This document shows, in pieces, positions 32,740 through 57,280 of a DNA stretch of 64,000 nucleotides (positions within the stretch are counted from its first letter, which is position 1; every line of letters begins with the position of its first letter). The notes under the pieces are model-generated. The model was not told the DNA's origin. It ran no database searches and was given only the letters and a program-made list of their open reading frames with translations. The position numbers were made by a program, and so were the translations under genes. The stretch covers positions 16,090 to 80,089 of the forward strand of contig JACRJV010000027.1 of NCBI GenBank assembly GCA_016215325.1, written 5' to 3'. The DNA is from Candidatus Uhrbacteria bacterium (lineage in GTDB: Bacteria; Patescibacteriota; Patescibacteriia; JACRJV01).

Positions 32740-32847
32740 AAGCAAGATTAATTTTCAATTATCAATTTGCAATTTTCAGTGAATTTTCAATTGATCATTG
32801 AATATTGATTGAAAATTAGAAATTGGAAATTGAAAATTTTTTTGTTT
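32740..32847. repeat. AT-rich spacer element (AATTTTCAATTATCAATTT...TTGAAAATTAGAAATTGGAAATTGAAAAT) upstream of fusA
   Basis: An about 40-nt near-identical stretch also occurs at about 56022; the family is shared with the 36421, 40972, 56017 and 57223 spacers. Confidence 0.6.
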
Positions 32848-34941
32848 ATGCCTCGTGAATATTCCCTCCAACAAACTCGTAATATTGGTATCATCGCTCA
32901 TATTGACGCCGGCAAGACCACCGTTTCTGAGCGTATTTTATTTTACACCGGGAAAAAGCATAAGATCGGCGAAGTACACGAAGGGGAAGCCACTATGGAC
33001 TGGATGGATCAGGAAAAAGAGCGCGGCATTACGATTACTGCCGCTGCGACCACATGTTTTTGGAAAGATACCCGTATCAATCTCATTGATACGCCCGGGC
33101 ACATCGACTTTACCGTCGAAGTAAAACGCAGCCTCAGGGTGCTGGACGGCGGCGTGGTGGTGTTTGACGGTGTTGCGGGCGTTGAGCCGCAAAGCGAAAC
33201 CAACTGGCATTATGCCGATGACTACAATGTTCCTCGGCTGTGTTTCATCAACAAGATGGATCGCATGGGCGCTGATTTTTACAAGGACCTCGCCGGGATC
33301 CATGAACGGCTCACCAAAAAAGCCTATCCGATCCAGTTGCCCATTGGCGCGGAAGAGAACTTTTTAGGCATCGTCGATGTATTGCGCGAGAAAGCCGTGT
33401 ATTACAAAGACGATCTTGGCAAAGACTTCGAAGAGCGCGATGTGCCCGAAGACATGAAGGAGTTGGTCGCCAAGTACCGGCATGAATTACTCGAGGCCAT
33501 TGTGGAGAACGACGAATCGTTGATGAATGCCTACCTCGGGGGCAGCCCGATCGCATTGGACGACCTCAAGCGCGTATTGCGCATTGCGGTCATTAAAAAT
33601 GGCGTGGTGCCGGTGCTTTGTGGCAGCGCTCTTAAAAACAAAGGCGTACAATATCTGTTGGATGCGGTCGTGGATTATTTGCCGTCGCCGTTGGATCTGC
33701 CTCCCGTACAGGCCCATGACCCGGATCATTCCGAGACAGTGATTGAGCGCAACGCCAGCGACGCCGAACCGTTTACGGCCTTAGCATTTAAACTCGCCGC
33801 TGATCCGTTCATTGGAAAGTTGGTGTTCTTCCGCGTGTATTCCGGGACGTTGTCAGCAGGTTCGTATGTTCTCAATAGCAGCAACGGGGAACGCGAACGC
33901 ATCGGCCGTATTGTCCGGCTCCATGCCAACCATCGCGAGGATGTTGACGCGGTCTATGCCGGTGAAATTGCCGCCGCTGTCGGGCTCAAGTCGACCTTTA
34001 CCGGCCACACATTGTGTGACCCCGAACACCCGGTGTTGATGGAATCCATCACCTTCCCGGAACCGGTAATTTCCGTTGCGATCGAACCCAAGACCAAGCA
34101 GGACCAAGAAAAAATGGGCCTTGCCATCCAGAAGCTTGCCGAAGAAGACCCCACGTTCCGAGTGCGCACGGATGAAGAAACGCTCCAGACGATTATTTCC
34201 GGCATGGGAGAGCTGCATCTGGACGTGTTGGTGGAGCGCATGAAGCGCGAGTTTAAGGTCGAAGCGAATGTCGGCCAACCGCAAGTGGCTTATAAAGAGA
34301 CAATTAAGAAATCTGCTCACGCCGAAGGCAAGTATATTAAACAATCCGGCGGCCGTGGTCAGTATGGACATTGTTGGATTCGCGTGGAACCTCAGGAACA
34401 AGGGAAGGGATATGAGTTTGAGGATGAAATCAAGGGCGGCGTTATCCCCAAGGAGTACATTGGCGCCATTCAAAAGGGCGTGAAAGAAACGTTCGATAAG
34501 GGCGTGATCGCGGGCTACCCGATTATCGATGTGAAGGCAGTAGTGTATGATGGGAGTTATCACGAAGTGGACTCCTCCGAAATAGCATTTAAAGTAGCAG
34601 CCGGCATGGCGGTCACCGAGGCAGTCAAACGCGCAGAGCCAGTGATTTTGGAGCCGCTCATGAAAGTTGAAGTGATCACGGCCGAACAGTTTATGGGCGA
34701 CGTGATCGGCGATCTTAATTCCAAACGCGGCCAAATTCAAGAGATGCGCGATCGGACCAATGTTAAAGTGATTGATGCGCTGGTGCCGCTTTCCGAAATG
34801 TTCGGGTATGCCACGCAATTGCGCAGCATGAGCCAAGGACGCGCCAGTTACTCCATGGAATTTTCTCATTACTCCGAAGTTCCCCGTAACGTTGCTGAAA
34901 AGATTATCGCTGCCTCAAGAGGGGAGAGTCTGAAAAAGTAG
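32848..34941 (+). CDS. fusA: Elongation factor G
   Basis: [10 protein letters not shown]1 motif, DTPGH; start moved to [14 protein letters not shown]. Confidence 0.93.
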
Positions 34942-34971
34942 TGCGCGAGAGCGCGCCAGCGCTGGATACAA

Positions 34972-35004
34972 AAACCGTCCCGTTGTCCTCGGGGCGGTTT
35001 TTTG
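34972..35004 (+). terminator. Rho-independent terminator after fusA
   Basis: ACCGTCCCG...CGGGGCGGT hairpin plus a T6 run. Confidence 0.7.
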
Positions 35005-35063
35005 TCGTTTGAATAAGGGTTTTTGATTGTCTTGTCCAAATAGGAATTGATCCGTACAATACA

Positions 35064-36158
35064 TTGGCTATGACCTACACCGTCAGTCAGTTCAACGCGG
35101 CGATTTCGAGCTATCTTTCCGAGGGCCTCGGCACTGTGTCGGTTCGGGGCGAAGTGGTGGACCTCAAGATCGCGAAGGATCGACTCGTGTTTTTTGATCT
35201 CAAAGATGCGGCCGCACGCGTGGGATGTTTTATGATGCGGTGGGAACTGCCGGAGGGCATCCGTGACGGCATGGAAGTTGAGATTGCGGCTCGCGCGGGA
35301 TTGTTCAAGCAGTCGGGTCGTTTCCATTTGCGCGTGATCACGGTGGTGCCGGTTGGCGACGGTGCGCTCGCGGCGGCCTTGCGTCAGCTCAAGGAAAAAT
35401 TGGAACGCGAAGGATTATTTGCGGCAGAGCGCAAGCGTCCGATCCCGCGCTTCCCACAGACCATTGGCATCGTCACTTCCGCCCAAGCGGCAGCATTCAC
35501 GGACATTGTACGCATCCTTAATAATCGATGGGGGAACATTTCGGTTGTCCTTTCTCCTGCAGCCGTCCAAGGGGCCGCGGCGGCCGCTGAAATCGTTTTG
35601 GCGTTAGAGCGGCTCAATAGCAGGCCGGACATCGATGTGATTATTGTGACGCGCGGTGGAGGAGCAGCGGAGGAACTGAATGCCTTTAATAGCGAATCCG
35701 TCGCACGGGCGATCTTTGCCAGCCGCGTGCCCGTGGTGAGTGCTGTCGGCCATGAGCGTGACACAACGATCGCCGACCTTGTGGCGGACCTTCGGGCGTC
35801 GACGCCATCCAATGCGGCAGAGCGCGTTGTGTGCGATCGCCGGGAAACCTTGGTACTGCTCGATCATTTCACCGAAGTCATGCATCAAGCGCTCCATCGA
35901 CAGGTTGAACGATCTCATCACACTCTCGAAACATTTGTGCGAACGGGAGAATTTTGGTTCGCTGGGTTGGTAGAGCGTTTGGAGCACGCGCGATCTCTGC
36001 TGGAGCACTTAAATCCTCAAGCGATTCTCCAGCGTGGATTTTCGATTACCAAAGACCATACCGGTGCCATTGTGCGCAGTGTAAAAGCAATCCATTGCGG
36101 CGATGTGATCCGCACGACTGTTTCGGATGGACAGATCGTGAGTGAGGTTATACGGTAA
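35064..36158 (+). CDS. xseA: Exodeoxyribonuclease VII large subunit
   Basis: N-terminal OB-fold plus catalytic domain; family-level sequence match. Confidence 0.85.
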   Translation: MAMTYTVSQFNAAISSYLSEGLGTVSVRGEVVDLKIAKDRLVFFDLKDAAARVGCFMMRWELPEGIRDGMEVEIAARAGLFKQSGRFHLRVITVVPVGDGALAAALRQLKEKLEREGLFAAERKRPIPRFPQTIGIVTSAQAAAFTDIVRILNNRWGNISVVLSPAAVQGAAAAAEIVLALERLNSRPDIDVIIVTRGGGAAEELNAFNSESVARAIFASRVPVVSAVGHERDTTIADLVADLRASTPSNAAERVVCDRRETLVLLDHFTEVMHQALHRQVERSHHTLETFVRTGEFWFAGLVERLEHARSLLEHLNPQAILQRGFSITKDHTGAIVRSVKAIHCGDVIRTTVSDGQIVSEVIR

Positions 36159-36186
36159 AAATTACGGCTTCCTCGCCTCTTTATCC

Positions 36187-36207
36187 CCCTGCCTACCGGC
36201 AGGCAGG
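36187..36207. repeat. Copy of the CCCTGCCTACCGGCAGGCAGG palindrome between xseA and xseB
   Basis: Same palindrome as at about 13281 and 23063, and inside the FemAB-like gene. Confidence 0.6.
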
Positions 36208-36228
36208 CGTATCTCTTATCTCCCGTGT

Positions 36229-36420
36229 ATGAAAACATTTCAACAACAATTCGAAGAGCTCGAGAACATTGTCCGCACGTTTGAATCCGGCGATGTCGAT
36301 CTTGATGTGGGGCTCAAGGAATTTGAGAAAGGGATGAAACTCGCTGGCGAGCTTAAAAAGAAACTTGACGGGGCAGAAGTGAAGTTGGAGACGCTCAAGA
36401 AAGAATACATCAAATCGTAA
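36229..36420 (+). CDS. xseB: Exodeoxyribonuclease VII small subunit
   Basis: MKTFQQQFEELENIVRTFESGDVDLD...; immediately downstream of xseA. Confidence 0.85.
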   Translation: MKTFQQQFEELENIVRTFESGDVDLDVGLKEFEKGMKLAGELKKKLDGAEVKLETLKKEYIKS

Positions 36421-36518
36421 TTTCCAATTTCCAATGAATTTTCATTGTCATTATTCTTAAATTGAATCATTGTAAATTCAATGAAAATTGTTACTTGAAA
36501 ATTGAAAATTATATCGGT
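36421..36518. repeat. AT-rich spacer element (TTTCCAATTTCCAATGAATTTTCATTG...AATTCAATGAAAATTG...TTGAAAATTGAAAAT) upstream of dnaE
   Basis: Contains the 16-nt palindrome CAATGAATTTTCATTG; shares ATTCAATGAAAATT with the 56017 spacer. Confidence 0.6.
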
Positions 36519-39500
36519 ATGTCGTTTGTTCATTTGCATGTCCACTCCCATTATTCGTTGCTCGACGGCCTGGGCAAAATCCCTGACCTGGTCGCGGCAG
36601 CAAAAGCCCAAGGCGCAACAGCGCTTGCGCTTACGGATCATGGCACATTATACGGAGCGGTGGAGTTTTATCAGGAATGCTTGCGTGCCGGGATCAAGCC
36701 GATTATCGGGATGGAAGCGTACGTCGCCGTCGGCAGCCGCCACGATAAGCGCAGCCGCGTGGATAATGATTATACGCACCTCGTGTTATTGGCAGAGAAT
36801 AATACTGGATATCAGAATTTACTCAAGCTCACAACGTTGGGCCACATCGAGGGATATTATTATAAACCTCGTATTGATTGGGAGTTATTGCAGCAATTTC
36901 ACGAGGGCCTCATCGCGCTCTCCGGTTGCTTGCGCGGCGCCGTGTCCAGAGAGATATTGTCCGGCAGCGGTGACGAGCGGGCGGCGTTTATTATCCGCCA
37001 GTATCAAACGGTATTCGGGGCAGAGAACTATTTCCTCGAAATTCAGCATCGCCCGAGTCTGCCAGATCAGGCGCGGGTCAATGCAGCTCTCGTGCGCCTC
37101 TGCCAAGCCACGGGCGCTGGGCTGGTGGCCACCAACGACGCGCATTATATCAACCCGGATGATGCGGACGCTCAAGATGTATTACTGTGTTTGCAGACCA
37201 AATCCAAGCGCGATGACCCAAAACGGCTCAACATGATGGGAGAAAATCTATCGCTGATCGCACCGGAGACGATGATCCAGTTATTTTTATATGCCCCGGA
37301 CGCGATCGCCAACACCGCGAAGATTGCCGACCGGTGTTCGGTAGAGATCCCCTTGGGCAAGGTGATCCTGCCCGAGTTTGCCGTTGCGGGGGGCGCAAAC
37401 GCCATGGAGGAACTGGAACGACTCTGTCACGATGGGCTGGGGCGCATGTACGGGCAGGCTCCGGCCACGGACGTCGTCGAACGTTTGCAGTACGAATTAT
37501 CGGTGATCGCAAAGACCGGATTTGCATCGTATTTTTTGATCGTTGCGGATTTTGTCAATTGGGCCAAGCGCCACGGGATCATGGTGGGTCCGGGCCGCGG
37601 CAGCGCAGCGGGGTCGCTGGTGAGTTTTTTATTGAACATCACCAGCGTCGACCCGGTGCGGTACAAATTGTTTTTTGAACGGTTTTTGAATCCGGAACGC
37701 ATCAGCATGCCGGATATTGATTTGGATTTTGCCGACCGCCGGCGCGATGAAGTCATCCACTATGTGGAGCAAAAGTACGGCAAAGATCACGTGGCGCAGA
37801 TTATTACCTTTGGGACCATGGCAGCGCGGGCGAGTATTCGGGACTGCGGACGGGTACTCGGGATGAGTTACTCATTTTGCGATACGCTGGCCAAGCTCAT
37901 CCCAATGGGGTTGAGTTTGCACGAGGCCGTGGATCAAGTGCCAGAGCTCAAAGAATTAATCAAAAAAGACGAGCAGGCAAACGTGGTTATTGCCACTGCT
38001 CAAAAAGTCGAGAATGTGGCGCGCCACAGTTCTACGCACGCTTGCGGCGTGGTGATTACCGATAAGCCCCTAGTGGAGTACACGCCGATTCAATTTGCCT
38101 CCAGTTCGGACCAAACGATTATCACGCAATATGGACTCCATAGCATCGAGGCGCTGGGGTTGCTTAAAATGGATTTTTTGGGGCTCAAGAACCTCACCAT
38201 TCTCGAGGATGCCCTCGCCATCATCCAGCACACCCGATCGGTTACGGTTGATCTTGCGTCCATCCCGCTCGACGACGTCAAGGCCTTTACGCTGCTGCAG
38301 TGCGGGGATACCACCGGCGTCTTCCAACTCGAATCCAGTGGCATGAAGCGCTACTTGAAAGAATTAAAGCCAACCGGGCTGGAAGATATCATCGCCATGG
38401 TCGCTCTGTATCGGCCGGGCCCCATGGAGCTTATCCCGGATTTTATCGCGAGCAAACACGGGACAAAGCGCATTGAGTATTTGCATCCTAAGTTGCAACC
38501 GATCTTGGATTATACGTATGGCATCGCCGTATACCAGGAGCAGGTACTGCAAATTGCCCGAGATATTGCGGGGTTTACACTTGGCGAGGCGGACGTCTTA
38601 CGCAAAGCCATCGGCAAGAAAATCAAAACACTTCTGATGGAGCAGCGAGAAAAATTTATCGTTGGCGCAATCAAGCAAGGCGTTGAGCGCAGTATTGCGG
38701 AGCGGCTCTTTGACTTTACCGAACCGTTTGCGCGGTATGGATTCAATCGGGCGCATGCCACCTGTTACGGCTTCATTGCGTATCAAACGGCGTACCTTAA
38801 AGCCAACTATCCCGTGGAGTTTATGGCGGCCCTGCTCAAAAGCGAAGTGGGAGATGTTGAACGGATCGCGGTGCTGGTCGGGGAATGCAAAGGGATGGGG
38901 ATCCGCGTGCTAGCGCCCGATATCAACGAAAGTTTTGAGAGCTTTACCGTGGCGTCCGAAGACGCCACCGGAGCCTCGGTCATTCGGTTTGGTTTGGCCG
39001 CAGTAAAGAATGTGGGCGAAGGGATTGTGGATCGGATCGTCAGCGAGCGCAAAACCAACGGGCCATTCACGAGTTTAGAAAATTTTCTCTTGCGCGTGGG
39101 CAGCGAAGTGCTCAATAAAAAATCTCTGGAGAGTTTTGTAAAGTGTGGGGCGTTGGATCGATTTGGTGATCGATCGCAATTGGCAGGCAATATTGAGAAA
39201 ATGTTAAAATTCGCGCGATCGGCATCCAGCGGCCAAGAACAATCTGCTCAGTCATCCCTCCTTTCGATGATGGGAGCAAGCGTCGCCCCTCGCGTCATGG
39301 CCCTGGATCCCATAGCCCCAGAGCGTCCAGAGACATTGTTGTGCTGGGAAAAAGAATTACTGGGACTCTATGTATCCGAGCATCCGCTGACCGCATTTTC
39401 GGCCCAGTTGTCAATTATCAGCATCCCGATTTCAACGGTGAAGAACTTTGAAGAACGCCAGGAGGCGGTGGTGGGTGGGCTGGTACTATCCATCAAAAGC

Positions 39501-39779
39501 ATTTACACAAAGAAAGGAGAGAAGATGCTCTTTGCAAAAGTAGAGGATCCGCAGGACTCGATCGAAGTGATTGTATTTCCTGAAACATTCCAAAAAACGG
39601 CTGGTCTCTGGGCCGAGGGAGGATTAGTGCTGCTCAAGGGTACCGTGACGCAGCGCGGGGGGGCCGCTCAGATCGTCTGTTCAAAAGCCATCGCGCTCAC
39701 ACCGGAACGCATTCAAGAATTAATTGCGGCTATGCCAAAACGTCCGACTCCCGCCGTTGCAGCAACAGCCTCCCAATGA
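36519..39779 (+). CDS. dnaE: DNA polymerase III alpha subunit
   Basis: PHP domain HLHVHSHYSLLDG; polymerase core; 1086 aa. Confidence 0.92.
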   Translation: MSFVHLHVHSHYSLLDGLGKIPDLVAAAKAQGATALALTDHGTLYGAVEFYQECLRAGIKPIIGMEAYVAVGSRHDKRSRVDNDYTHLVLLAENNTGYQNLLKLTTLGHIEGYYYKPRIDWELLQQFHEGLIALSGCLRGAVSREILSGSGDERAAFIIRQYQTVFGAENYFLEIQHRPSLPDQARVNAALVRLCQATGAGLVATNDAHYINPDDADAQDVLLCLQTKSKRDDPKRLNMMGENLSLIAPETMIQLFLYAPDAIANTAKIADRCSVEIPLGKVILPEFAVAGGANAMEELERLCHDGLGRMYGQAPATDVVERLQYELSVIAKTGFASYFLIVADFVNWAKRHGIMVGPGRGSAAGSLVSFLLNITSVDPVRYKLFFERFLNPERISMPDIDLDFADRRRDEVIHYVEQKYGKDHVAQIITFGTMAARASIRDCGRVLGMSYSFCDTLAKLIPMGLSLHEAVDQVPELKELIKKDEQANVVIATAQKVENVARHSSTHACGVVITDKPLVEYTPIQFASSSDQTIITQYGLHSIEALGLLKMDFLGLKNLTILEDALAIIQHTRSVTVDLASIPLDDVKAFTLLQCGDTTGVFQLESSGMKRYLKELKPTGLEDIIAMVALYRPGPMELIPDFIASKHGTKRIEYLHPKLQPILDYTYGIAVYQEQVLQIARDIAGFTLGEADVLRKAIGKKIKTLLMEQREKFIVGAIKQGVERSIAERLFDFTEPFARYGFNRAHATCYGFIAYQTAYLKANYPVEFMAALLKSEVGDVERIAVLVGECKGMGIRVLAPDINESFESFTVASEDATGASVIRFGLAAVKNVGEGIVDRIVSERKTNGPFTSLENFLLRVGSEVLNKKSLESFVKCGALDRFGDRSQLAGNIEKMLKFARSASSGQEQSAQSSLLSMMGASVAPRVMALDPIAPERPETLLCWEKELLGLYVSEHPLTAFSAQLSIISIPISTVKNFEERQEAVVGGLVLSIKSIYTKKGEKMLFAKVEDPQDSIEVIVFPETFQKTAGLWAEGGLVLLKGTVTQRGGAAQIVCSKAIALTPERIQELIAAMPKRPTPAVAATASQ

Positions 39780-39834
39780 TATAGTAAGTCCATCCGCCCT
39801 GCGGCGTTCATTGGAAATTAGAAATTTCGTATCT

Positions 39835-40971: not shown

Positions 40972-41081
40972 TCCTTAAATTTCCAATATCTAATATCCAA
41001 TTTCCAATAAAATGTCCAATGCTCGAATGACAGAATAATTTGTTTATTCCGACATGTAGCATTGGATTTTTATTAGAAATT
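40972..41081. repeat. AT-rich spacer element (AAATTTCCAATATCTAATATCCAATTTCCAAT...) upstream of thrS
   Basis: Member of the GGAAATTGG/TTCCAATTT family. Confidence 0.55.
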
Positions 41082-45020: not shown

Positions 45021-45364
45021 TACTCGGTTCGACAGTAAATAATAGTGATGGGCCCTCATCGGAAACGATGGGGGTCTGGCGTTGTGGGCGGAAGCGTAGA
45101 CACGACCGCGGTATTCTTTTGCCTGGCTGCGGAATTCAGCTCCTCCGATTGCGATCGGAGGACCATCCCGACACGCATCAACAGCAATCTTTCCTCAGCA
45201 TGTCGGGATTGCCTCAAACAGTCCTCGCTATCAGCAAAAGAATATCACGGTCGTGTCTATCGTTTAGTAGATAAGAAAGTTGAGTTTTGTGGTTGGGTAT
45301 GGTAGGGTCGTAGCCAGAGGAAACGCGATGCCTGCGAGACCTCTCGAACGTGCGGAGGTGCACG

Positions 45365-50362: not shown

Positions 50363-51616
50363 ATGGCGTTGCGTTGGAAAAACACTCTTTGGCCCAAGGT
50401 GTTATTTTTTTTGAGCGTGATCGGCCCTGGGATTATTGCGGCTAACGCCGATAATGATGCCGGCGGGATCAGCACGTATTCCATCGTTGGCGCCCACTTT
50501 GGCACCTCGATGTTATGGATCTTGTTTTTACTGACCTTTTCACTGGCGGTGACACAAGAGATGGGCGTACGCATTGGTCTGGTCACGCAACAAGGCTTGG
50601 GCGGGGTGATCCGGGAATACTTTGGCGTGCGCTGGACCGTCTTTGCCATGGTGGCAATGCTCATCGCCAATATGGGGACCATCGTCGCAGAGTTCGCCGG
50701 GATTGCGTCGTCGTTTGAATTATTTGGTATCACAAAATATCTTGTCGTTCCTATTGCCGCTGTGGTGGTCTGGACGGTGTTATACAAAGGATCGTTTCGC
50801 GCGGCTCAAAAAATCTTTTTGCTGTTTTCGATGTTCTACATTGTTTACATCATCAATGGGTTTATCGTCAAGCCGGATTTTGGGTTGGCATTCAAGAGCC
50901 TTATTACGCCGCAAATCCAATGGTCTGGCACATATTTACTCACCATGATTGCTCTGATTGGGACAACGATTACCCCCTGGGGACAGTTTTTCATCCAATC
51001 ATATGTGGTGGATAAGGGGCTTAATATTAAGCATTATTCTGTAGAAAAATGGGAAGTATTCATCGGGGCGCTGATTACGAATGTCGTCAGTTTCTTTATT
51101 ATTGTGAGTACGGCGTTTACATTGTTTCAAGCGGGGATTCGCATTCATGACGCGAAAGATGCGGCGTTCGCTCTGGAACCGTTAGCGGGGCATTTTGCCG
51201 AAGTCCTCTTCGCGTTTGGATTATTTAGCGCCTCGATGTTGGGAGCGTTTATCTTGCCGGTGGCGACATCGTATGCGGTGTGCGAGGCATTGGGCTGGGA
51301 ATATGGGTTTAACACCAATTGGAAGAACGGGCGGATGTTTTATAGCATCATTCTTTTTTCGATCATCCTGCCGGCGCTGATAGTGCTCATTCCGCGTTTG
51401 CCATTAGTCAATGTGATGCTCTTGAGCCAGGATATCAATGGGATCTTATTGCCCATCATCCTTATCTTCGTGATGCTCATTATCAACAACCCGCGCATCA
51501 TGGGAGCGCATACAAACAAGCGATGGGGGAATGCCATCGCTTGGTTGACTATTATCGGGATTATTTTCGCCACCGTGTTACTGGTCGTTGCCCCATTGAT
51601 CGGGCTTGCCCCTTAG
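50363..51616 (+). CDS. NRAMP-family divalent metal transporter
   Basis: GPGIIAANADNDAGGIST and further NRAMP motifs; about 11 transmembrane helices. Confidence 0.85.
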   Translation: MALRWKNTLWPKVLFFLSVIGPGIIAANADNDAGGISTYSIVGAHFGTSMLWILFLLTFSLAVTQEMGVRIGLVTQQGLGGVIREYFGVRWTVFAMVAMLIANMGTIVAEFAGIASSFELFGITKYLVVPIAAVVVWTVLYKGSFRAAQKIFLLFSMFYIVYIINGFIVKPDFGLAFKSLITPQIQWSGTYLLTMIALIGTTITPWGQFFIQSYVVDKGLNIKHYSVEKWEVFIGALITNVVSFFIIVSTAFTLFQAGIRIHDAKDAAFALEPLAGHFAEVLFAFGLFSASMLGAFILPVATSYAVCEALGWEYGFNTNWKNGRMFYSIILFSIILPALIVLIPRLPLVNVMLLSQDINGILLPIILIFVMLIINNPRIMGAHTNKRWGNAIAWLTIIGIIFATVLLVVAPLIGLAP

Positions 51617-52056
51617 GCCAGCAGTTGTTTGACCCGATCGCAGACGAGTTTGCCATCCGCGCGACCGCGAGTTTTGACACTCACTTCTTTCATCACTTTG
51701 CCGAAATCAGCAGTGGTTGAGGCTCCAGTGTTAGTGATCGTTTCACGGATGATTGCATCTACTTCCTCCGTTGTGAGTTGCTGCGGTAAATAGGATTCGA
51801 GAATCTGGAGTTCTTGTTGTTCGGATTGCGCGAGATCGGCACGGCTCGCACGCGTATATTCTTCGATTGCTTCTCTCCGGCGCTTTACTTCTCGCTGGAT
51901 AATCGAGACGGTCTCCTCTGGCGTTGCTTCGTGGAGATCCCCCTGACGTTCCGAAAGTTGGATGGCAGACAAGAGCAACCGGAGCGTTGAGACGCGGAGT
52001 TTTTCTTTTGCGATCATCGCTTGCTTTAATTGCAGTTGGAGGTCTTGTTTGGTCAT
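51613..52056 (-). CDS. yqeY: GatB/YqeY-domain protein
   Basis: YqeY-family sequence; 4-nt overlap with the NRAMP stop. Confidence 0.75.
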   Translation of the reverse strand: MTKQDLQLQLKQAMIAKEKLRVSTLRLLLSAIQLSERQGDLHEATPEETVSIIQREVKRRREAIEEYTRASRADLAQSEQQELQILESYLPQQLTTEEVDAIIRETITNTGASTTADFGKVMKEVSVKTRGRADGKLVCDRVKQLLA

Positions 52057-52071
52057 ACCGTAGAAATGAAT

Positions 52072-53622
52072 TTATTCAATACCTAACTTATCGCGGAGCA
52101 ATTGTGCAGCAATCTCCGGGTTCGCCCTTCCTTTAGTTTTTTTCATTACTTGGCCGACTAAAAATTGCAGTGCGGTCACCTTCCCACCTTTCACATCTGC
52201 CACCACCTTTGGGTTCTCTGCGACTACCGTGTCGACATGTTCTTGGATGCTTGCGGCATCCGAGACTTGTGCGAGCCCTTGTTCTTCGAGGATTTGGCTC
52301 GGATCGCCTCCGGAAACCACCATATGAGTGAGTAGTTGGAGCGCATTAGTGCCATTGACCTTGTTGGTTGCGATCATCGATAGTAACTCCGCGAGATTTT
52401 CCGCATCGAGTTTCATCGTCGACAATGTTCGTTTTTGTTCGTTGAGCACTCCGAGCAGCTTGCTGCCGATCCAGCCGGCGACAAGTTTTGTCCATTTAGA
52501 ACGTGTTTGCAATGCCGCATCACTCGCCTCTCCCACAGTATCGCGGATCCATGTGGTGAGCTCTGCCATCACTTGCTCCACAAAAGCGGCGAGTTCTTTT
52601 GAGTCGCAGAAGACCGCTGCATCAGAACTGGTAAAACCGTACTCTTGCTCAAATCGTTGCCGTTTTGCTGCAGGCAGTTCCGGGAGTTGCTGTACAATTC
52701 CGGCAATGCGTTCGGGCGTAAATGTTATTGGCGGTAAATCGGGTTCGGGGAAGTATCGATAGTCGTGCGCTTCTTCTTTTGTGCGTTGCTCGACCGTGAT
52801 ACCGCGAGCATCATCCCATCCGCGAGTGGATTGGAAATTGACTGGATTTCCTTCTTCCCAGAGTTTGGTTTGACGGATGATTTCGTATTCCAGGGCACGC
52901 TCCACCGATTTGAATGAATTCATATTTTTCACTTCTGTTTTTGGCCCGAGTTTCGAGTAATCCGTAATCCAGTCCTCCTGGTCCCTGGCCACTGGTCCCT
53001 GGCCACTGACCTCTCGCATGGAGATATTTGCATCACACCGCAGATGCCCCTTTTCCATATCTGCTTCGGAAACGCCGATGTACCGTGCGATGCGCTGGAG
53101 TTCTTGTAAGAAATTCTTGGCTTCCGCCGGGGAGCGGAAATCTGGTTCCGTGACGATCTCCATGAGCGGGGAGCCGGCGCGGTTAAAATCGACATAGGAT
53201 TCTTTATTTTTTCCATGCAGGAGTTTGCCGGCGTCTTCTTCAAGGTGGAGGCGAGTGATTCGGATTTTTTTCTGGTATTTCCCCTTGGGGGAGGCCACGT
53301 CAAAGACCACCGCGCCATTCGTGCATAACGGTTGGTCGTATTGGGAAATTTGATAGCCCTTGGGGAGGTCGGGATAGAAATAATTTTTTCGGTCAAACTT
53401 GGAGAACGCTGCAACGGTGCACCCTAACGCTGCACCCATGAGCGCCCCCTTTTCGAGTGCAATGCGGTTGATGATCGGCAGCGTCCCTGGCTGTCCGGTG
53501 CAGATCGGGCAGATGGCTGTGTTGGGGGCCTCGTCTTCGACCATGTTCGGGCAGCCGCAGAACATTTTGCTCTGGGTATTAGTGCGGATGTGGATTTCTA
53601 ATCCTATAATCGGCTGTAGCAT
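52072..53622 (-). CDS. gatB: Asp/Glu-tRNA(Asn/Gln) amidotransferase subunit B
   Basis: N-terminal GLEIHIRTNTQSKMFCGC...CPICTGQPG. Confidence 0.92.
   Translation of the reverse strand: MLQPIIGLEIHIRTNTQSKMFCGCPNMVEDEAPNTAICPICTGQPGTLPIINRIALEKGALMGAALGCTVAAFSKFDRKNYFYPDLPKGYQISQYDQPLCTNGAVVFDVASPKGKYQKKIRITRLHLEEDAGKLLHGKNKESYVDFNRAGSPLMEIVTEPDFRSPAEAKNFLQELQRIARYIGVSEADMEKGHLRCDANISMREVSGQGPVARDQEDWITDYSKLGPKTEVKNMNSFKSVERALEYEIIRQTKLWEEGNPVNFQSTRGWDDARGITVEQRTKEEAHDYRYFPEPDLPPITFTPERIAGIVQQLPELPAAKRQRFEQEYGFTSSDAAVFCDSKELAAFVEQVMAELTTWIRDTVGEASDAALQTRSKWTKLVAGWIGSKLLGVLNEQKRTLSTMKLDAENLAELLSMIATNKVNGTNALQLLTHMVVSGGDPSQILEEQGLAQVSDAASIQEHVDTVVAENPKVVADVKGGKVTALQFLVGQVMKKTKGRANPEIAAQLLRDKLGIE
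52979..53009. repeat. Tandem 14-mer repeat (CTGGTCCCTGGCCA, 2 copies) inside the gatB CDS
   Basis: Encodes VSGQGPVARDQ; the same CTGGTCCCTGG word recurs upstream of nusG and rplA. Confidence 0.6.
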
Positions 53623-53720
53623 AGTGGATGGTTGCTGGAATTGGAGATTGGTAATAGAGAGTAGAAAATAGAGGTTGGAAACATTTCTAATCTCTATACA
53701 CCAATTTCCATTACCAGTCT
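53623..53720. repeat. Palindromic AT-rich spacer (GGTTGCTGGAATTGGAGATTGGTAATAGAGAGTAGAAAATAGAGGTTGGAAAC...) between tmk and gatB
   Basis: Related to the 26952-27062 palindrome. Confidence 0.6.
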
Positions 53721-54389
53721 CTAATTTCTAGCAACCAATTTCCGTTTTACAACTGCCCATATCTTCTCATGGATCTCCTCCTTACTCAAGAGCGTTCCAT
53801 CGGGGGCGCAATTGATGAGGGAAATGTGGTTTTTTGACGTTGCGGCAAGTGTTTTGTAGAGAGCTAAGATATCGTTTTGGTGTCTTCGATTGCGTTCGAT
53901 ATGATCCAAACGCTGGTTTGTTTTTTTGGAGCGTTCGCGCAGGAGTTGCACTGAGATAGCCGTAGGAACCGTGAGAACAATCGTATGGTCTGCTCGGGGA
54001 ATGCCAAACACCCCATACTCCAATTGTTCGATCCAGCGCCAGAGCGGCTTGCGTTTTGCCGGCGGCAGCTTGGCGGCGGAATACACTAAACTACTGGTCA
54101 CATAGCGGCTGGAGATCACCGCTTCGCCGCGCTCTATCCATTTGCGAATCTGGGCACTGGCATCAAAGCGATCCACCGCATACAGGATACTGCTGACCTC
54201 GGCCTTGAGCTTGCCCGGATCGCCATAGCGGCCATGGAGGTATTGGTCAACCGCCCAAGCAGCAGAGTGTCCATGGCGAGGGAACGCAATCGTGCGAGTA
54301 GGAAAATGTTCTTTGCGCATACGGCGCGCCAGGAGCTTGAGCTGGGTGGTTTTCCCGGATCCATCAGTGCCTTCGATAACGATGAACAT
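53721..54389 (-). CDS. tmk: Thymidylate kinase
   Basis: P-loop IEGTDGSGKTTQ; start at the internal Met (54389). Confidence 0.88.
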   Translation of the reverse strand: MFIVIEGTDGSGKTTQLKLLARRMRKEHFPTRTIAFPRHGHSAAWAVDQYLHGRYGDPGKLKAEVSSILYAVDRFDASAQIRKWIERGEAVISSRYVTSSLVYSAAKLPPAKRKPLWRWIEQLEYGVFGIPRADHTIVLTVPTAISVQLLRERSKKTNQRLDHIERNRRHQNDILALYKTLAATSKNHISLINCAPDGTLLSKEEIHEKIWAVVKRKLVARN

Positions 54390-54390
54390 A

Positions 54391-54473
54391 CGATACGAGA
54401 TATGAAGATATGAGGATATGAAGGGATAGCGGATAATAGCACTCTTAATATCTACGTATCTGATATCTTCGTA
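54391..54473. repeat. GATACGAGATATGAAGATATGAGGATATGAAGG...ATATCTTCGTAT palindromic leader element upstream of tmk
   Basis: Terminal inverted repeat ATACGA(A)GATAT; related copies at about 22355-22440 and 172-215. Confidence 0.5.
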
Positions 54474-54477
54474 TTTT

Positions 54478-56016
54478 TTACCGTTCAAAAAATTCCCTTG
54501 GGAAATTCATCTTCACTGCGCGAAGGTCTCGCACCAGCAGGGGGTGAATAGCCTTCACTTTTTCGAACATCTCGTAACAGAGATCGCGATAGGAAAAATG
54601 TCCGCCGGATTTGGTGCGCAGTTCCACCATGTGGTAGAGTTCGCGCAAGTTCATTTTAAAGAGAGTTCGTTTTTTCCAACCAAGGGCAATCAGGTATTGG
54701 CTCGCGTACCCCACTGTTGAACGGAGTGTTTCGACACGGGCGCGATTGCGCTGCATGAATTGAGTATAGCGGTCCAGCAACCCCGCATCTTCAATATCGC
54801 GTGGAATTTCATATCCATGCAACGTGCTGACCCCCTGATTAATTTGGCTTGTGATGCGATGGCGTTGGAGGTCGCGGAATGCGCCGTAATCAAAGAGGGT
54901 ATCGAATAGGAGGCCTTGTCCGACTTCGAACTCCCGGCTTACCCAGTCATGGGACCCTCGTTTGTTCTGAACGCTGTCCAATATATCCTGCTTGGTTTCC
55001 AGCGGAAGCGGACGGACAGTTTCTACAATCGTGCGGAATGGGAGCGTTGATTCGGCGTAGAGCAGTGTCGCAATCAATTCATCCTCTGGTGTTATTTGGC
55101 CGCTGATGTAATCAACGCGGGGTTCCGGAATGCGAGATTCGGGGCTTGTGACGCCGGATAACAACCGTTCCGTCCATTGGCGCATGTTCTTACTTTTCTC
55201 CATGAGATATTGTTTGGGGTCGGTATGTTTTACGAGCGTCGGAGCGCCCTTGACTTGCAATGTCAGTTGCTGGCGCAATTCTTGAATCAGATGTGGCTCC
55301 GATGTTGATCCGAGCAAGCGTTCTAATAGTGGTTGGATTTTATTGAATTGCGGATTGTATGCGGCGGTGGTTGCTGCGTGTTGAAGCTCCTTTCCGATCG
55401 AATGCATTTCTAACAGTGGGTGCGCGAGCAGCTTTGAAATGCAATGCCGCAATTCCCGCGCGTTCATGATCATACCAAAATTAGTGAGCGTTGCTGTCGG
55501 CAATAGATACCGCGCAACATCCAAGGCTCGTGCGCAGCATTTGTTGGCATACGCTTTGTCGCTCATCTCCGCAGGCTTTGCGTAGGTCTTCTGATAGAAT
55601 GCGACCATCGCTTCCGTGATCGTCTGGTATCCTTCCATCAAGTCTCTGATCCCTTCAACATACAGGGCGCGCATGGCCGGGTCGGCGAGTTCTTCTGGGA
55701 CAAAAAAACGGTCGATGTGGAATGGTTGATACCGTGTTGATTTTTCTTGGAACGATGCCATGCGACAGTCCTCCACCACTTTGCTGGCAAGAATGGAGAT
55801 ATTCTCCAGCGCCATTGGGATCACCGCCATGTCGGCAACCGATGCATCCCCAAACCCCAACACCCATTTTTCGTGGAATTCGGCGCTTTTTTCCTCGGTC
55901 AACTCATCAATCGTTTCCTTGATCGATGCCCCCGATCGGCTGTATTTTGCCATAGCAACAGCCAAGACTTCGGGCGGGAGTCCTGCGATGGAGAAGATGG
56001 AGCGCTCAAAAGACAT
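54478..56016 (-). CDS. thyX: FAD-dependent thymidylate synthase, tandem-duplicated form (512 aa)
   Basis: ThyX signature RHRxxS (LQRHRITSQ) in the C-terminal half; length is about twice a canonical ThyX. Confidence 0.75.
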   Translation of the reverse strand: MSFERSIFSIAGLPPEVLAVAMAKYSRSGASIKETIDELTEEKSAEFHEKWVLGFGDASVADMAVIPMALENISILASKVVEDCRMASFQEKSTRYQPFHIDRFFVPEELADPAMRALYVEGIRDLMEGYQTITEAMVAFYQKTYAKPAEMSDKAYANKCCARALDVARYLLPTATLTNFGMIMNARELRHCISKLLAHPLLEMHSIGKELQHAATTAAYNPQFNKIQPLLERLLGSTSEPHLIQELRQQLTLQVKGAPTLVKHTDPKQYLMEKSKNMRQWTERLLSGVTSPESRIPEPRVDYISGQITPEDELIATLLYAESTLPFRTIVETVRPLPLETKQDILDSVQNKRGSHDWVSREFEVGQGLLFDTLFDYGAFRDLQRHRITSQINQGVSTLHGYEIPRDIEDAGLLDRYTQFMQRNRARVETLRSTVGYASQYLIALGWKKRTLFKMNLRELYHMVELRTKSGGHFSYRDLCYEMFEKVKAIHPLLVRDLRAVKMNFPREFFER

Positions 56017-56122
56017 AACAGTAAATTTTCAATTATCAATTTTTAATTTTCAATGAATGATTCAATTTAGAATTTTTCAACATTGAAAATTCAATGAAAA
56101 TTTTAAATTGGGAATTGGAAAT
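56017..56122. repeat. AT-rich spacer element (AAATTTTCAATTATCAATTTTTAATTTTCAATGAATG...TTGAAAATTCAATGAAAATT...GGAATTGGAAATT)
   Basis: About 40 nt nearly identical to the fusA upstream spacer; shares a motif with the dnaE spacer. Confidence 0.6.
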
Positions 56123-56557
56123 TTATACCGTGGTTCCCGTCGACCCATATCCACCACGGTCAGCGGCATCGATCTCTTCTTCGGAAAACTCCGCTTTGTC
56201 GATGCGGACAAACACTGCCTGGCCCAGGCGTTCACCTTTTTCAATGGTAACGGGATGGTCGGTAAAGTTATAGAATTGCAAAAGGATTTCGTCGTTTGGC
56301 CCGCAGTAATCTTGGTCGACCACCCCAATGCCTTGCGGGATGGACAAGCCCTTGCGTTTGGGAGTGGACGAGCGGGGGACCACCACGAGCATGTACTTCT
56401 CGGGAGTCTCGACAATAATATTGGTGGGGATCCGTTCTATTGCTTTTGGCGCAACGGTGGTATCAATGCGACTGTACAGATCAAACGCCACCGAACCCGG
56501 GGTGTGGTAGGCCGGCAAGGGCAGGGTGGGGTCGATGCGGTGGATGCGCACCATCAT
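56123..56557 (-). CDS. dut: dUTP diphosphatase
   Basis: dUTPase motifs PRSS and GxIDxDY (GVVDQDYCG); 144 aa. Confidence 0.9.
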   Translation of the reverse strand: MMVRIHRIDPTLPLPAYHTPGSVAFDLYSRIDTTVAPKAIERIPTNIIVETPEKYMLVVVPRSSTPKRKGLSIPQGIGVVDQDYCGPNDEILLQFYNFTDHPVTIEKGERLGQAVFVRIDKAEFSEEEIDAADRGGYGSTGTTV

Positions 56558-56631
56558 AGATCAGTAAGCAGTAAGCAGTAATGGTGCCATCGTTTACGAT
56601 TGCTTCTTGCTCACTGTTTCTTGTTTCTCAA
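56558..56631 (-). promoter_or_regulatory. Conserved leader element upstream of dut: GAAACAAGAAACAGTGAGCAAGAAGCAATCG then CTTACTG heptamer repeats
   Basis: About 30 nt nearly identical to the leader upstream of rplK (58516-58555). Confidence 0.5.
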
Positions 56632-57222
56632 CTAAGACTGGAAGTCTTCCGGCAGAAACTTCGTTGAGGTTTGTCCGGTTTGCTGTTTAAACCGTCCTTT
56701 TTGTTGATATGAAAACTCCACCGGAGAGCTTAACTCTTCGAAGGTGAAACTGCAAATGCGCATCCCGGGGTAGAGCGCCACGGGGATCCGGCCTTGGTTG
56801 CCGAGCTCGAGCATGGGGTTGCCGTCCCAGCCGGGGTCAAAGCGCGCTGCTGTTGAATGGACGATAATGCCGACTCGGGCAAGACTTGACCGCCCTTCCA
56901 GCCGGCCGATCAAATCATTGGAAAGCGTGAGTCGTTCGCGGGTGGCGGCGATAATGAGTTCCCCAGGGTGGATAATAAAACGTTCCCCATCCGGGATCTC
57001 CACGAGTCTCGTGACCGTATCAATCACGAGCTCCTGGAGGGGATCGATGATCGGGAGCTTGTTATAGTCAAATACGCGGAATGTATTGCCTAAGTGGAAG
57101 TCGACAGAGCACGGCCGTAAAATCGAGGACGTAAGGTCCGGGGAAGGTTCCATCTGGATTCGTCCAGCAGCAAACGCGCGGCGGATGTCACGGTCGGACA
57201 AAATCACAATGAAAATTTTCAA
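56632..57222 (-). CDS. dcd: dCTP deaminase
   Basis: ILSDRDIRR N-terminus, FDPGWDGNP motif; TTG start at 57222 or GTG at about 57207. Confidence 0.85.
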   Translation of the reverse strand: MKIFIVILSDRDIRRAFAAGRIQMEPSPDLTSSILRPCSVDFHLGNTFRVFDYNKLPIIDPLQELVIDTVTRLVEIPDGERFIIHPGELIIAATRERLTLSNDLIGRLEGRSSLARVGIIVHSTAARFDPGWDGNPMLELGNQGRIPVALYPGMRICSFTFEELSSPVEFSYQQKGRFKQQTGQTSTKFLPEDFQS

Positions 57223-57280
57223 TACCCAATTCCAATTCCCAATACACGTCGACTATTCATTGGAAATTAGGAATTGGGAA
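57223..57280. repeat. AT-rich spacer element (CCCAATTCCAATTCCCAAT...CATTGGAAATTAGGAATTGGGAATTAGAAATT)
   Basis: Member of the GGAATTGG/GGAAATT family. Confidence 0.55.

What the first reader, a model, noticed from the sequence alone, without database searches (positions are those of the whole stretch)
32740..57280. Pervasive AT-rich GGAAATTGG / TTGAAAATTCAATG spacer-element family in intergenic regions
Most intergenic spacers between core genes (about 32740-32847, 36421-36518, 39805-39834, 40972-41081, 53623-53720, 56017-56122, 57223-57280, plus 26952-27062 inside GC-rich block B) are built from the same words. These are AATTTCCAATTTCC, TTGAAAATTGAAAAT, ATTCAATGAAAATT and GGTAATAGAAAATAG. They include an about 40-nt near-identical stretch at 32755 and 56022, and homologous palindromes of about 110 nt at 26952 and 53628. 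They look like a family of regulatory, REP-like or MITE-like elements, or dense binding sites for a global DNA-binding protein, in an organism otherwise short of canonical promoters and SD sites.
Basis: seen in the sequence. Interest (0 to 1): 0.6.

Follow-up and report, generated by a model that had tools for sequence, protein, structure and literature searches.

The report
Heptamer-armed palindromic repeats between genes
The AT-rich spacers are real: they are small palindromic repeat elements whose arms are runs of 7-base units, and they have colonised the gaps between co-transcribed genes (and a few genes themselves) in a tiny-genome candidate-phyla bacterium, much like REP or Rickettsia palindromic elements elsewhere.

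Summary
The listed spacers exist, are 18-38% GC in a ~52% GC window, and share AATTTYC/GRAAATT words far beyond chance. The unifying features are a strict 7-base period and near-complete palindromy, not the exact words.

At least four colinear families sit in the window, plus a fifth, CGAAT-word family with a shared 27-nt core. All 11 high-periodicity spacers lie between co-directional genes. One hairpin fills each gap from stop codon to start codon.

The source is a Candidatus Uhrbacteria (CPR/Patescibacteria) genome. In relatives the same junctions are empty (2-12 nt), hold the same element, or hold an unrelated palindrome family. The same families recur at unrelated loci and in other genomes. 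Related arrays and palindromes sit in frame inside LeuRS, FemAB-like and Elp3-like genes. Folding shows no overall bias towards the mRNA strand.

Best reading: REP/RPE-like dispersed palindromic elements with STRR-like heptamer arms, tolerated at operon junctions. Some (rpsG-fusA) may have been co-opted as RNA hairpins. Canonical promoters and terminators do exist; Shine-Dalgarno sites do not.

A linked 30-bp GC double hairpin occurs in more than 120 metagenome contigs, mostly in frame in proteins.

The parts
32740..32847 (.). rpsG>fusA spacer. AATTTYC-family palindrome with arms 32750-32791 and 32797-32838, followed by a T-run and the ATG.
   Evidence: The arms are 42 nt and 83% complementary. 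MFE is -36 against -13 for shuffles. It is present with the same architecture in L082 and L085 and is sense-favoured there.
36415..36518 (.). xseB>dnaE spacer. AATTTYC-family element whose first unit overlaps the TAA stop codon.
   Evidence: alignment score 83 against 32740. There is no spacer in L196, and a different AT-rich palindrome in L082 and L085.
39805..39834 (.). dnaE>unknown gene. Short GGAAATTAGAAATTTC remnant next to a degenerate GC hairpin (ATCCGCCCTGCGGCG).
   Evidence: No significant fold. L081/L196 carry a 208-nt composite here that includes the 30-mer GC core.
40972..41081 (.). unknown gene>thrS spacer. AATWTCY heptamers plus a hairpin.
   Evidence: z = -5.4. The element is absent in L081 (3-nt junction) and L085 (8 nt), with no target duplication.
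53623..53720 (.). tmk<gatB spacer. GGTAATAG/GGAAATTGG-type palindrome (opposite arm polarity).
   Evidence: z = -6.5. It is homologous to 26952 (73% over 88 nt) and to the orthologous spacer of L267.
56017..56125 (.). dut<thyX spacer. AATTTYC-family palindrome.
   Evidence: 37-nt arms, 84% complementary. 79% identical to 32740 over 101 nt. L267 has the same family here, L265 an unrelated family, and L269 none.
56558..56631 (.). dcd<dut spacer. CAGTAAG-family heptamer hairpin.
   Evidence: 76% identical to 58481 over 71 nt.
57214..57292 (.). rplA<dcd spacer. AATTCCC/GGGAATT heptamer palindrome.
   Evidence: z = -6.5.
57959..58053 (.). rplK<rplA spacer. (AGGTTCC)5 paired with TGGTCCC-type units.
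   Evidence: The junction is 3-4 nt in L267 and L269.
58482..58555 (.). nusG<rplK spacer. (CAGTGAA)4 paired with TTCACTG-type units.
   Evidence: The junction is 2-4 nt in L267 and L269.
59102..59170 (.). secE<nusG spacer. AGGTTMC/CTGGTCC heptamer inverted repeat.
   Evidence: 75% identical to 57959 over 56 nt.
26952..27062 (.). 111-nt near-perfect palindrome of the GGTAATAG family, in the ORF-poor 20-31 kb block.
   Evidence: MFE -47 against -19 for shuffles. Homologous to 53623.
18010..18075 (+). In-frame composite inside leuS: AATTTYC units flanking the 30-nt GC double hairpin at 18025-18054.
   Evidence: The loop is 26 aa, against 16 aa in 97 of 120 homologues, which is exactly +10 codons. 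It is also +10 aa relative to T. thermophilus LeuRS.
23435..23615 (+). Two in-frame composites inside a FemAB-like gene (23435-23490 and 23560-23615): AATTTCC units flanking a CCTGCCTTGCYGGCAGGCAGG hairpin.
1505..1580 (.). 76-nt palindrome (ATGCGAAT units) at the start of a 59-aa insert in an Elp3-like gene.
12028..12141 (.). CGAAT-family palindrome downstream of a + strand gene and trpS(-). Its 27-nt core recurs at 13145 and in L265.
   Evidence: 93-96% identity.

Best explanation
The spacers are copies of small, non-coding, dispersed palindromic repeat elements. In behaviour they resemble REP/BIME and Rickettsia palindromic elements. Their two arms are tandem arrays of 7-nt (occasionally 8-nt) units, like cyanobacterial STRR repeats.

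Several sequence families co-exist in this Candidatus Uhrbacteria genome.

Shown:
- Copies are colinearly homologous.
- They sit almost only in stop-to-start junctions of co-directional genes.
- They are present, absent or replaced by other families at the same junctions in relatives.
- Related arrays and GC hairpins occur in frame inside genes.

Inferred:
- Copies spread by a DNA-level copy mechanism that leaves no target duplication. Candidates are a hairpin/ssDNA-dependent enzyme acting in trans, or template switching at replication forks.
- Arms then grow and shrink by replication slippage of the 7-nt unit and are re-symmetrised by intrastrand template switching.
- The elements persist because, in a compact Shine-Dalgarno-less genome, only insertions that fold back on themselves survive. 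Folding brings the upstream stop codon and the downstream start codon together again and so preserves translational coupling. The same filter allows only stop-free, in-frame insertions inside genes.
- A few long-lived copies, notably rpsG-fusA, may have been co-opted as mRNA hairpins.
For: Periodicity and palindromy:
- 15 period-7 arrays against 0.2 expected.
- Lag-7 identity 0.529 against 0.287, z = 17.9.
- MFE z-scores of -3.6 to -9.2 for 9 of the 13 window spacers folded, including most of the heptamer spacers.

Families by descent:
- Five pairs are 73-81% identical over 56-101 nt.
- The five window pairs tested each exceed 200 of 200 block shuffles.

Turnover at orthologous sites:
- unk>thrS is 107 nt here against 3-8 nt in L081 and L085.
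- nusG>rplK and rplK>rplA are 74-95 nt here against 2-4 nt in L267 and L269.
- dut>thyX holds the same family in L267, an unrelated family in L265 and nothing in L269.
- rpsG>fusA in the closest relative, L196, holds a period-8 GAGATAAG-type hairpin that is 81% identical to the one at thyX>tmk in L265.
- The CGAAT core is shared by window positions 12042 and 13145 and by dcd>dut in L265.

No target duplication at filled-versus-empty sites.

In-ORF copies: LeuRS +10 aa, a 59-aa Elp3 insert that starts with a palindrome, and two composites in the FemAB-like gene.

Location: 11 of 19 co-directional spacers of at least 40 nt carry the signal, against 0 of 4 divergent and 0 of 3 convergent spacers. 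One hairpin domain spans 75-100% of each spacer (over 80% in 16 of 20). The median distance from stop codon to stem is 0 nt and from stem to start codon 6.5 nt.

No general mRNA-strand bias in folding: 9 sense-favoured against 16 antisense-favoured, Wilcoxon p = 0.37, over 27 elements.

The phenomenon is lineage-wide. Period-7 arrays are the commonest class in every CPR locus set examined.

Heptamer SSR excess in prokaryotes, and slippage as its proposed cause, are in the literature (PMC4679880, PMC4692102).
Against: - No mobilising enzyme was identified. No transposase was found among the window ORFs scanned. Only one IS200-like tnpA was found among 120 contigs that carry the associated GC core.
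- No insertion polymorphism was seen within a population. The strain-level contigs available were identical.
- The restriction to co-directional junctions, and the fact that rpsG>fusA carries a hairpin in all four lineages even after the family was replaced, would also fit selection for an RNA hairpin.
- The rpsG>fusA AATTTYC element is 7.7-12.8 kcal/mol more stable in the sense strand in all three species that have it, with five compensatory pairs.
- The stop-start 'bridging' tolerance argument is pure inference.
Confidence: 0.55

Rival explanations
1. The elements are selected intercistronic mRNA hairpins. Long stems between cistrons would act as RNase III processing or 3'-end stabilising sites (as between phage T7 early genes). 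Alternatively they would act as coupling or shunt structures that hand ribosomes from a stop codon to the next start codon in a genome without Shine-Dalgarno sites. Under this reading the sequence is free and only the fold is selected.
For: - All high-periodicity spacers lie inside apparent operons.
- The hairpin spans the gap from stop to start.
- 0 of 26 starts has an SD.
- rpsG>fusA holds a hairpin in four lineages, of two unrelated families. The AATTTYC version shows a sense-strand advantage, U.G pairs and 5 compensatory pairs.
- 27 of 41 co-directional spacers in the window and its relatives fold with z < -3.
Against: - Close relatives run secE-nusG-rplK-rplA, unk-thrS and xseB-dnaE with 0-12 nt junctions and no hairpin. 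The hairpins are therefore dispensable.
- There is no overall sense-strand bias: 9 against 16, p = 0.37.
- The same repeat types occur inside ORFs.
- No Rfam family matches.
Confidence: 0.2
2. The elements are a pure mutational by-product. Heptanucleotide slippage by the replicative polymerase, plus template switching, builds arrays and palindromes locally at each junction. There is no copying between loci.
For: - Heptamer SSRs are the most abundant long SSR class in many prokaryotes, and polymerase slippage has been proposed as the cause (PMC4679880, PMC4692102).
- Unit sequences differ between loci and lineages.
- The first unit often overlaps the local TAA stop codon.
Against: - Colinear homology between unlinked elements goes beyond shared units: 0 of 200 block shuffles reach the observed score for each of five pairs.
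- The same complex families occur at non-orthologous loci of different genomes.
- An exact 30-mer associated with the arrays is present in more than 120 unrelated contigs.
Confidence: 0.12
3. The arrays are binding sites for a global DNA- or RNA-binding protein (a nucleoid protein, a repressor, or a CSP-like protein with a heptamer footprint) that reads the AATTTYC/GRAAATT unit.
For: - The strict 7-nt register.
- The AATTTYC unit recurs in distant CPR contigs.
- Cold-shock proteins bind one heptamer each (as discussed in PMC4679880).
Against: - Other families in the same positions use unrelated units (AGGTTCC, CAGTGAA, GAGATAAG).
- The elements are absent from divergent promoter spacers.
- They are dispensable in relatives.
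- No candidate protein was identified.
Confidence: 0.06
4. The elements are promoters or intrinsic terminators of an unusual AT-rich type.
For: - 32740 ends in T7GT3.
- There are weak 9/12 promoter-like matches at 32809 and 56053(-).
Against: - Canonical promoters and GC-stem terminators exist elsewhere in the window.
- Most elements lack a T-run in the sense direction.
- They sit between genes of conserved operons that relatives keep contiguous.
Confidence: 0.03

Closest known systems
REP / BIME / REPIN elements of proteobacteria
   Same: Short imperfect palindromes in many dispersed copies. They lie inside transcription units (between co-directional genes) and not in divergent promoter regions. 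Several families occur per genome, turnover between relatives is rapid, and there is no target duplication.
   Different: REPs are about 35 nt and GC-rich, with a conserved head recognised by a RAYT transposase. The elements here are 60-110 nt, mostly AT-rich, and built from tandem 7-nt units. No RAYT was found in the window.
Rickettsia palindromic elements (RPE)
   Same: Palindromic dispersed repeats of about 100 nt in a reduced genome. They are found both between genes and in frame inside protein-coding genes, without breaking the reading frame.
   Different: The organism and the sequences are unrelated. RPEs lack heptamer-repeat arms. Here the clearest in-frame insert is a 30-nt GC double hairpin flanked by the heptamer units.
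STRR and other heptanucleotide SSRs (Calothrix/Nostoc STRR, Xanthomonas GGGAATC, Beggiatoaceae TAACTGA)
   Same: Tandem 7-nt units that are intergenic, often lie directly upstream of start codons, and are sometimes paired as inverted arrays. The hosts make little use of SD sites (PMC4679880, PMC4692102).
   Different: Those are mostly direct arrays of one or a few fixed units. Here the arrays are systematically paired into long hairpins, the units are different and mostly AT-rich, and the host is a CPR bacterium.
Bacterial MITEs (Correia/NEMIS, ERIC, RUP, Nezha)
   Same: Small non-autonomous repeats with inverted ends, often in transcribed intergenic DNA.
   Different: MITEs have defined terminal inverted repeats, target-site duplications and a parent IS. 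No duplication and no parent IS were seen here.
Intercistronic RNase III hairpins of phage T7, and hairpin-mediated ribosome shunting (CaMV leader). These are 'works like' analogues only.
   Same: A long stem placed exactly between a stop codon and the next start codon.
   Different: No evidence here for cleavage or shunting. There is no strand bias, and the elements are dispensable in relatives.

Membership tests
REP/BIME/REPIN | Imperfect palindrome that can form a stem-loop | tested here: met
   MFE z-scores of -3.6 to -9.2 for most elements. Arms are 79-92% complementary.
REP/BIME/REPIN | Many dispersed copies in transcribed extragenic positions, avoiding divergent promoter regions | tested here: met
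   11 of 19 co-directional spacers, 0 of 4 divergent and 0 of 3 convergent. Families have 2-3 copies within 64 kb.
REP/BIME/REPIN | Conserved short head sequence (GTAG-type) plus a GC-rich stem of about 35 nt | tested here: not met
   The elements are 60-110 nt, mostly 18-40% GC, with no common head. Families share only period and symmetry.
REP/BIME/REPIN | Cognate RAYT (Y1 HUH transposase) in the genome | not testable with these tools
   Only 64 kb of the genome is available. No transposase domain was found in the ORFs scanned. One IS200-like tnpA was found in 1 of 120 core-bearing contigs.
MITE | Terminal inverted repeats | tested here: met
   The whole element is an inverted repeat.
MITE | Target-site duplication flanking the insert | tested here: not met
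   The filled-versus-empty junctions unk>thrS, nusG>rplK and rplK>rplA show no duplicated bases.
MITE | Parent insertion sequence with the same ends | not testable with these tools
   The genome is not available beyond the window. None was seen in the fetched loci.
Rickettsia palindromic elements | Dispersed palindromic repeats that also occur in frame inside ORFs | tested here: met
   LeuRS carries exactly +10 codons. Elp3 has a 59-aa insert that starts with a 76-nt palindrome. The FemAB-like ORF stays open through two composites.
Rickettsia palindromic elements | Sequence homology to the RPE families | not tested
The host is a Patescibacteria member, not Rickettsia.
STRR / heptanucleotide SSR | Tandem 7-nt units, mainly intergenic | tested here: met
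STRR / heptanucleotide SSR | The specific STRR unit sequences (recalled from memory as CCCCAGT, TTGGTCA, CAACAGT) | tested here: not met
   The units here are AATTTYC, AGGTTCC, GAACAGT, GGTAATA and others. GAACAGT differs by one base from the recalled STRR3 unit; this is a lead only.
Intrinsic terminator | GC-rich stem followed by a U-tract in the sense direction | tested here: not met
   The terminator scan does not pick the elements, and only 32740 has a T-run. True terminators are found elsewhere.
Any curated RNA family | Match to an Rfam covariance model | tested here: not met
   No match with E <= 0.5 in 31.2-60 kb. Only tRNAs were found in the window.

The most novel reading that the evidence does not exclude
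CPR bacteria may carry a previously undescribed class of hairpin mini-elements. It would comprise two parts. The first is the heptamer-armed palindromes. The second is a 30-bp GC double hairpin (TCCGCCCAAGGCGGATCCGCCTCTGGCGGA) that inserts at TTY|RAA sites without target duplication.

The 30-mer is found as an exact copy in more than 120 contigs from very different organisms. In 60 of 75 in-ORF cases it is read in the one frame that gives a harmless F-SAQGGSASGG-K/E linker.

Under this reading the elements spread horizontally through an ssDNA/hairpin-specific enzyme. They would be tolerated at operon junctions because folding restores stop-start proximity for termination-reinitiation in a translation system without Shine-Dalgarno sites.
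Probability: 0.25. Interest if true: 0.8.

Novelty: new variant of a known kind. Interest (0 to 1): 0.6.

Why it matters
CPR/Patescibacteria genomes are regarded as streamlined and poor in mobile DNA. Finding that most longer operon junctions in one lineage are occupied by fast-turning-over palindromic repeats, some of them inside essential genes, changes that picture.

It also gives three practical or testable leads:
- Markers for strain typing.
- Concrete sequences to look for when asking how heptamer repeats arise.
- A testable link between hairpin insertions and translation re-initiation in bacteria that lack Shine-Dalgarno sites.

The associated 30-bp in-frame insert is a simple signature that can be searched for across metagenomes.

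Tried and rejected
- Cyanobacterial origin. I considered this because of the heptamers and 8 HIP1-like GCGATCGC sites. It is rejected: DnaE and ThyX are 100% identical to Candidatus Uhrbacteria proteins.
- Exact-protein look-ups of S7 and EF-G found nothing. The source record came up only through the homology searches.
- The sense-versus-antisense folding test for RNA-level selection gave no overall bias.
- Orientation of the AT-rich family relative to transcription cannot be resolved, because both orientations align almost equally well.
- Arm-polarity census: 5 distinct class A cases against 1 class B. This is too few to use.
- The idea that heptamer arrays are target-duplication footprints of the GC core. 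Any insertion into a perfect array gives identical 7-nt flanks, so the 12 of 114 matching flanks prove nothing. The association of AATTTYC arrays with the core is modest: 9 of 120 against about 3% expected.
- A search for strain-level length polymorphism found only identical contigs.
- A LeuRS homology search with a partial query returned only relatives of 62% identity or less, so no empty-site allele from a close relative was obtained.
- A TnpA probe recalled from memory hit one contig only, and that contig's IS ends are unrelated to the core.
- Pfam scans of the ORF-poor 20-31 kb block gave nothing useful.
- Literature searches for heptamers in Patescibacteria and for the 30-mer or its peptide found nothing.

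Full report
**What is in the sequence**

The window averages about 52% GC.

Their exact long words are rare. AATTTCCAATTTCC occurs four times, and three of those copies lie inside ORFs. The degenerate family is far above chance. (CAATTTC)2 with up to three mismatches occurs 46 times, against 10.8 +/- 3.3 in dinucleotide shuffles.

The common denominator is a 7-nt period:
- 28 of 57 Tandem Repeats Finder rows have period 7 and nine have period 14.
- A self-similarity scan finds 15 period-7 arrays against 0.2 expected, with 0-3 for periods 2-13 and 15.
- Inside 12 spacers, lag-7 identity is 0.529 against 0.287 in composition-matched shuffles (z = 17.9), with echoes at lags 14 and 21.

**Anatomy**

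Each element is a long imperfect palindrome whose two arms are heptamer arrays. An example is AATTTTC AATTATC AATTTGC AATTTTC ... GAAAATT AGAAATT GGAAATT GAAAATT at 32750-32838. Predicted folds are far more stable than shuffles, at -18 to -47 kcal/mol against -8 to -19.

- CAGTGAA/CAGTAAG at 58482 and 56558.
- AGGTTCC/TGGTCCC at 57959 and 59102.
- GGTAATAG at 53623 and 26952.
- A CGAAT-word family at 12028, 13129 and 1505.

Pairs within a family are 73-79% identical over 56-101 nt. All five pairs tested beat 200 of 200 shuffles that keep the 7-nt blocks. The similarity is therefore colinear homology, not merely a shared unit.

**Genomic context**

Pfam annotation shows that the elements lie between co-directional genes:
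- On the + strand: rpsG>fusA, xseB>dnaE, dnaE>unknown and unknown>thrS.
- On the - strand, every junction of secE-nusG-rplK-rplA-dcd-dut-thyX, and also tmk-gatB.

The ORF at 58006-58497(+) is spurious. L11 is on the - strand.

In a census of spacers of at least 40 nt, 11 of 19 co-directional spacers have lag-7 identity of at least 0.43. None of the four divergent and none of the three convergent spacers does.

A single hairpin domain covers 75-100% of each spacer (over 80% in 16 of 20). The median distance from the stop codon to the stem is 0 nt, and from the stem to the start codon 6.5 nt. Often the TAA stop codon is part of the first unit.

The organism does have ordinary promoters (44059, 35032, 59880, 59457 on the - strand). 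It also has GC-stem/T-run terminators at 34970, 15664, 20360 and 46665. It lacks Shine-Dalgarno motifs: 0 of 26 starts have one. No Rfam family matches any spacer.

**Source and relatives**

DnaE and ThyX are identical to proteins of a Candidatus Uhrbacteria MAG with a 106.6-kb contig. The nearest species representatives are Patescibacteria at no more than 58% DnaE identity.

I fetched syntenic contigs of closer relatives:
- L081/L196 (DnaE 84%), L082-84 (75%) and L085 (76%).
- L265 (ThyX 83%), L267 (77%) and L269/270 (72%).

**Comparison of orthologous junctions**

- unk>thrS is 107 nt longer here than in L081 (3 nt) and L085 (8 nt), with no target duplication.
- nusG>rplK and rplK>rplA are 74-95 nt here but 2-4 nt in L267 and L269.
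- xseB>dnaE has no spacer in L196 and a different AT-rich palindrome in L082 and L085.
- dut>thyX has an AATTTCC-type element here and in L267, an unrelated GCTGATC-type palindrome in L265, and overlapping genes in L269.
- tmk>gatB is homologous here and in L267 but different in L265 and L269.
- rpsG>fusA has the AATTTYC hairpin here and in L082 and L085. In the closest relative, L196, it has a period-8 GAGATAAG-type hairpin that is 81% identical to the one at thyX>tmk in L265.
- The 27-nt CGAAT core of window positions 12042 and 13145 recurs at dcd>dut in L265 at 96% identity.

This is the pattern of dispersed repeat families that burst, decay and replace one another. It is not the pattern of conserved regulatory sites.

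Period-7 arrays are the commonest class in every CPR locus set examined, at 8-17 per 100 kb, with period 8 second in close relatives. The window has about 23 per 100 kb.

**Copies inside genes**

- In leuS, AATTTYC units flank a 30-nt GC double hairpin at 18025-18054. The loop between the WIGRSEG and FTTR motifs is 26 aa here and 16 aa in 97 of 120 CPR homologues. That is exactly ten extra codons. A few homologues carry ISNFQF there, which is the translation of the AATTTCC array.
- A FemAB-like ORF stays open through two composites with a CCTGCC...GGCAGG core.
- An Elp3-like gene has a 59-aa insert relative to solved Elp3 structures, and the insert begins with the 76-nt palindrome at 1505-1580.
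- Heptamer arrays also sit in frame in a phosphomutase-like gene (4461) and elsewhere.

**RNA or DNA?**

Over 27 significantly structured co-directional spacers in the window and its relatives, the mRNA strand is not favoured. Nine are sense-favoured and 16 antisense-favoured (Wilcoxon p = 0.37).

The exception is the AATTTYC hairpin at rpsG>fusA. It is 7.7-12.8 kcal/mol more stable in the sense strand in all three species that have it. It contains several U.G pairs and five compensatory pairs, and it is followed by a U-rich tract. These three copies are homologous, so this counts as little more than one observation.

**Interpretation**

The evidence best fits REP/RPE-like dispersed palindromic elements whose arms are STRR-like heptamer arrays.

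The following points are shown:
- Period, symmetry and family homology.
- Restriction to operon junctions.
- Gain, loss and replacement among relatives.
- In-frame copies inside genes.
- No target duplication, and no general strand bias.

The following points are inferred:
- The copy mechanism is either a hairpin/ssDNA-specific enzyme acting in trans or replication template switching.
- Arm length changes by slippage of the 7-nt unit. This is proposed for heptamer SSRs in general (PMC4679880, PMC4692102).
- The elements are tolerated because a self-folding insert restores stop-start proximity in an SD-less genome with tightly coupled genes.

The main rival is that the hairpins are selected mRNA structures. 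It is favoured by their exclusive operon location and by the persistence of a hairpin at rpsG>fusA. It is disfavoured as a general explanation because close relatives do without the hairpins. The two readings can coexist, with most copies as passengers and a few co-opted.

**A linked observation**

The 30-mer TCCGCCCAAGGCGGATCCGCCTCTGGCGGA has these properties:
- It forms two 6-bp-stem hairpins and has no stop codon in any of the six frames.
- It occurs in 114-120 distinct contexts, depending on how edge cases are counted.
- The host organisms are diverse: their proteins are 40-95% identical to the window's, and their GC content is 32-65%.
- The flanks follow ...TT(T/C)|core|(A/G)AA.... T is at position -2 in 95 of 114 contexts and A at +2 in 105 of 114.
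- 75 of 116 contexts lie inside long ORFs. 60 of those 75 use the single frame that gives F-SAQGGSASGG-K/E.
- About a tenth sit inside heptamer arrays. AATTTYC arrays are about 2.5-fold enriched next to the core.
- L081/L196 carry the core in the dnaE>unknown spacer.
- Neither the DNA nor the peptide appears in the searchable literature.

I did not identify what mobilises it. Only one core-bearing contig has an IS200-like tnpA, and its ends are unrelated to the core.

**Verdict**

I found no description of heptamers in Patescibacteria in the searchable literature. I rate the finding a new variant of a known kind, of moderate to good interest, mainly because of the host group and the in-gene insertions.

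Noticed in passing
window 18025-18054; also L081 3160-3189 and loci L086-L205: The exact 30-nt GC double hairpin TCCGCCCAAGGCGGATCCGCCTCTGGCGGA is present in more than 120 metagenome contigs from diverse organisms. It is inserted at TTY|RAA sites, mostly inside ORFs, in the frame that encodes SAQGGSASGG. No literature hit was found.
   Followed up: partly
window 13281, 23063, 23311, 23449, 23574, 36188; also L010, L022, L028, L035, L082: A second GC hairpin module, CCTGCCTRCCGGYAGGCAGG, recurs in the window (some copies in ORFs) and in distant Patescibacteria contigs. It sometimes occurs in clusters with other small hairpins.
   Followed up: partly
window 17306-20332, about aa 460-641: LeuRS carries an inserted alpha/beta-hydrolase (Ser_hydrolase/Abhydrolase) domain of about 180 aa in its catalytic core. 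At least one homologue (P0241) shows the same Pfam combination.
   Followed up: no
window 61762-63906 (-): GyrB contains an intein (PF14890). The L269 relative also has one; L267 does not.
   Followed up: no
window 20400-31100: An 11-kb stretch of 55-60% GC has few convincing ORFs; only RF1, L31 and the FemAB-like gene were recognised. It holds two tandem tRNA-Val(AAC)-like genes at 27610-27754 and a duplicated hairpin (GCGGCCGGCACAGGGG...) at 21013 and 22284.
   Followed up: partly
window 7038-7055 and about 11247-11264: The same 18-mer, GAATACCATTGAGTATCT, lies just upstream of two unrelated start codons.
   Followed up: no
window-wide: No Shine-Dalgarno motif was found at 26 of 26 start codons, and position -1 is almost always T. 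GCGATCGC (HIP1-like) occurs 8 times in 64 kb, against about 1 expected.
   Followed up: partly
window 45097-45122 / 45234-45259: A 26-nt inverted repeat (92% complementary), with 111 nt between the arms, lies in a 329-nt spacer that is not heptamer-based.
   Followed up: no
L269 6652-6760; L196 614-708 and 3993-4095; L265 3341-3433: Relatives carry period-8 versions of the same architecture, for example (AGCTTCCT)4 paired with (TAGGAAGC)n, and GAGATAAG-type hairpins with 28-bp perfect stems.
   Followed up: partly
window 54478-56016 (-): ThyX is double length (512 aa, with two Thy1 stretches). This is conserved across many Patescibacteria homologues.
   Followed up: no
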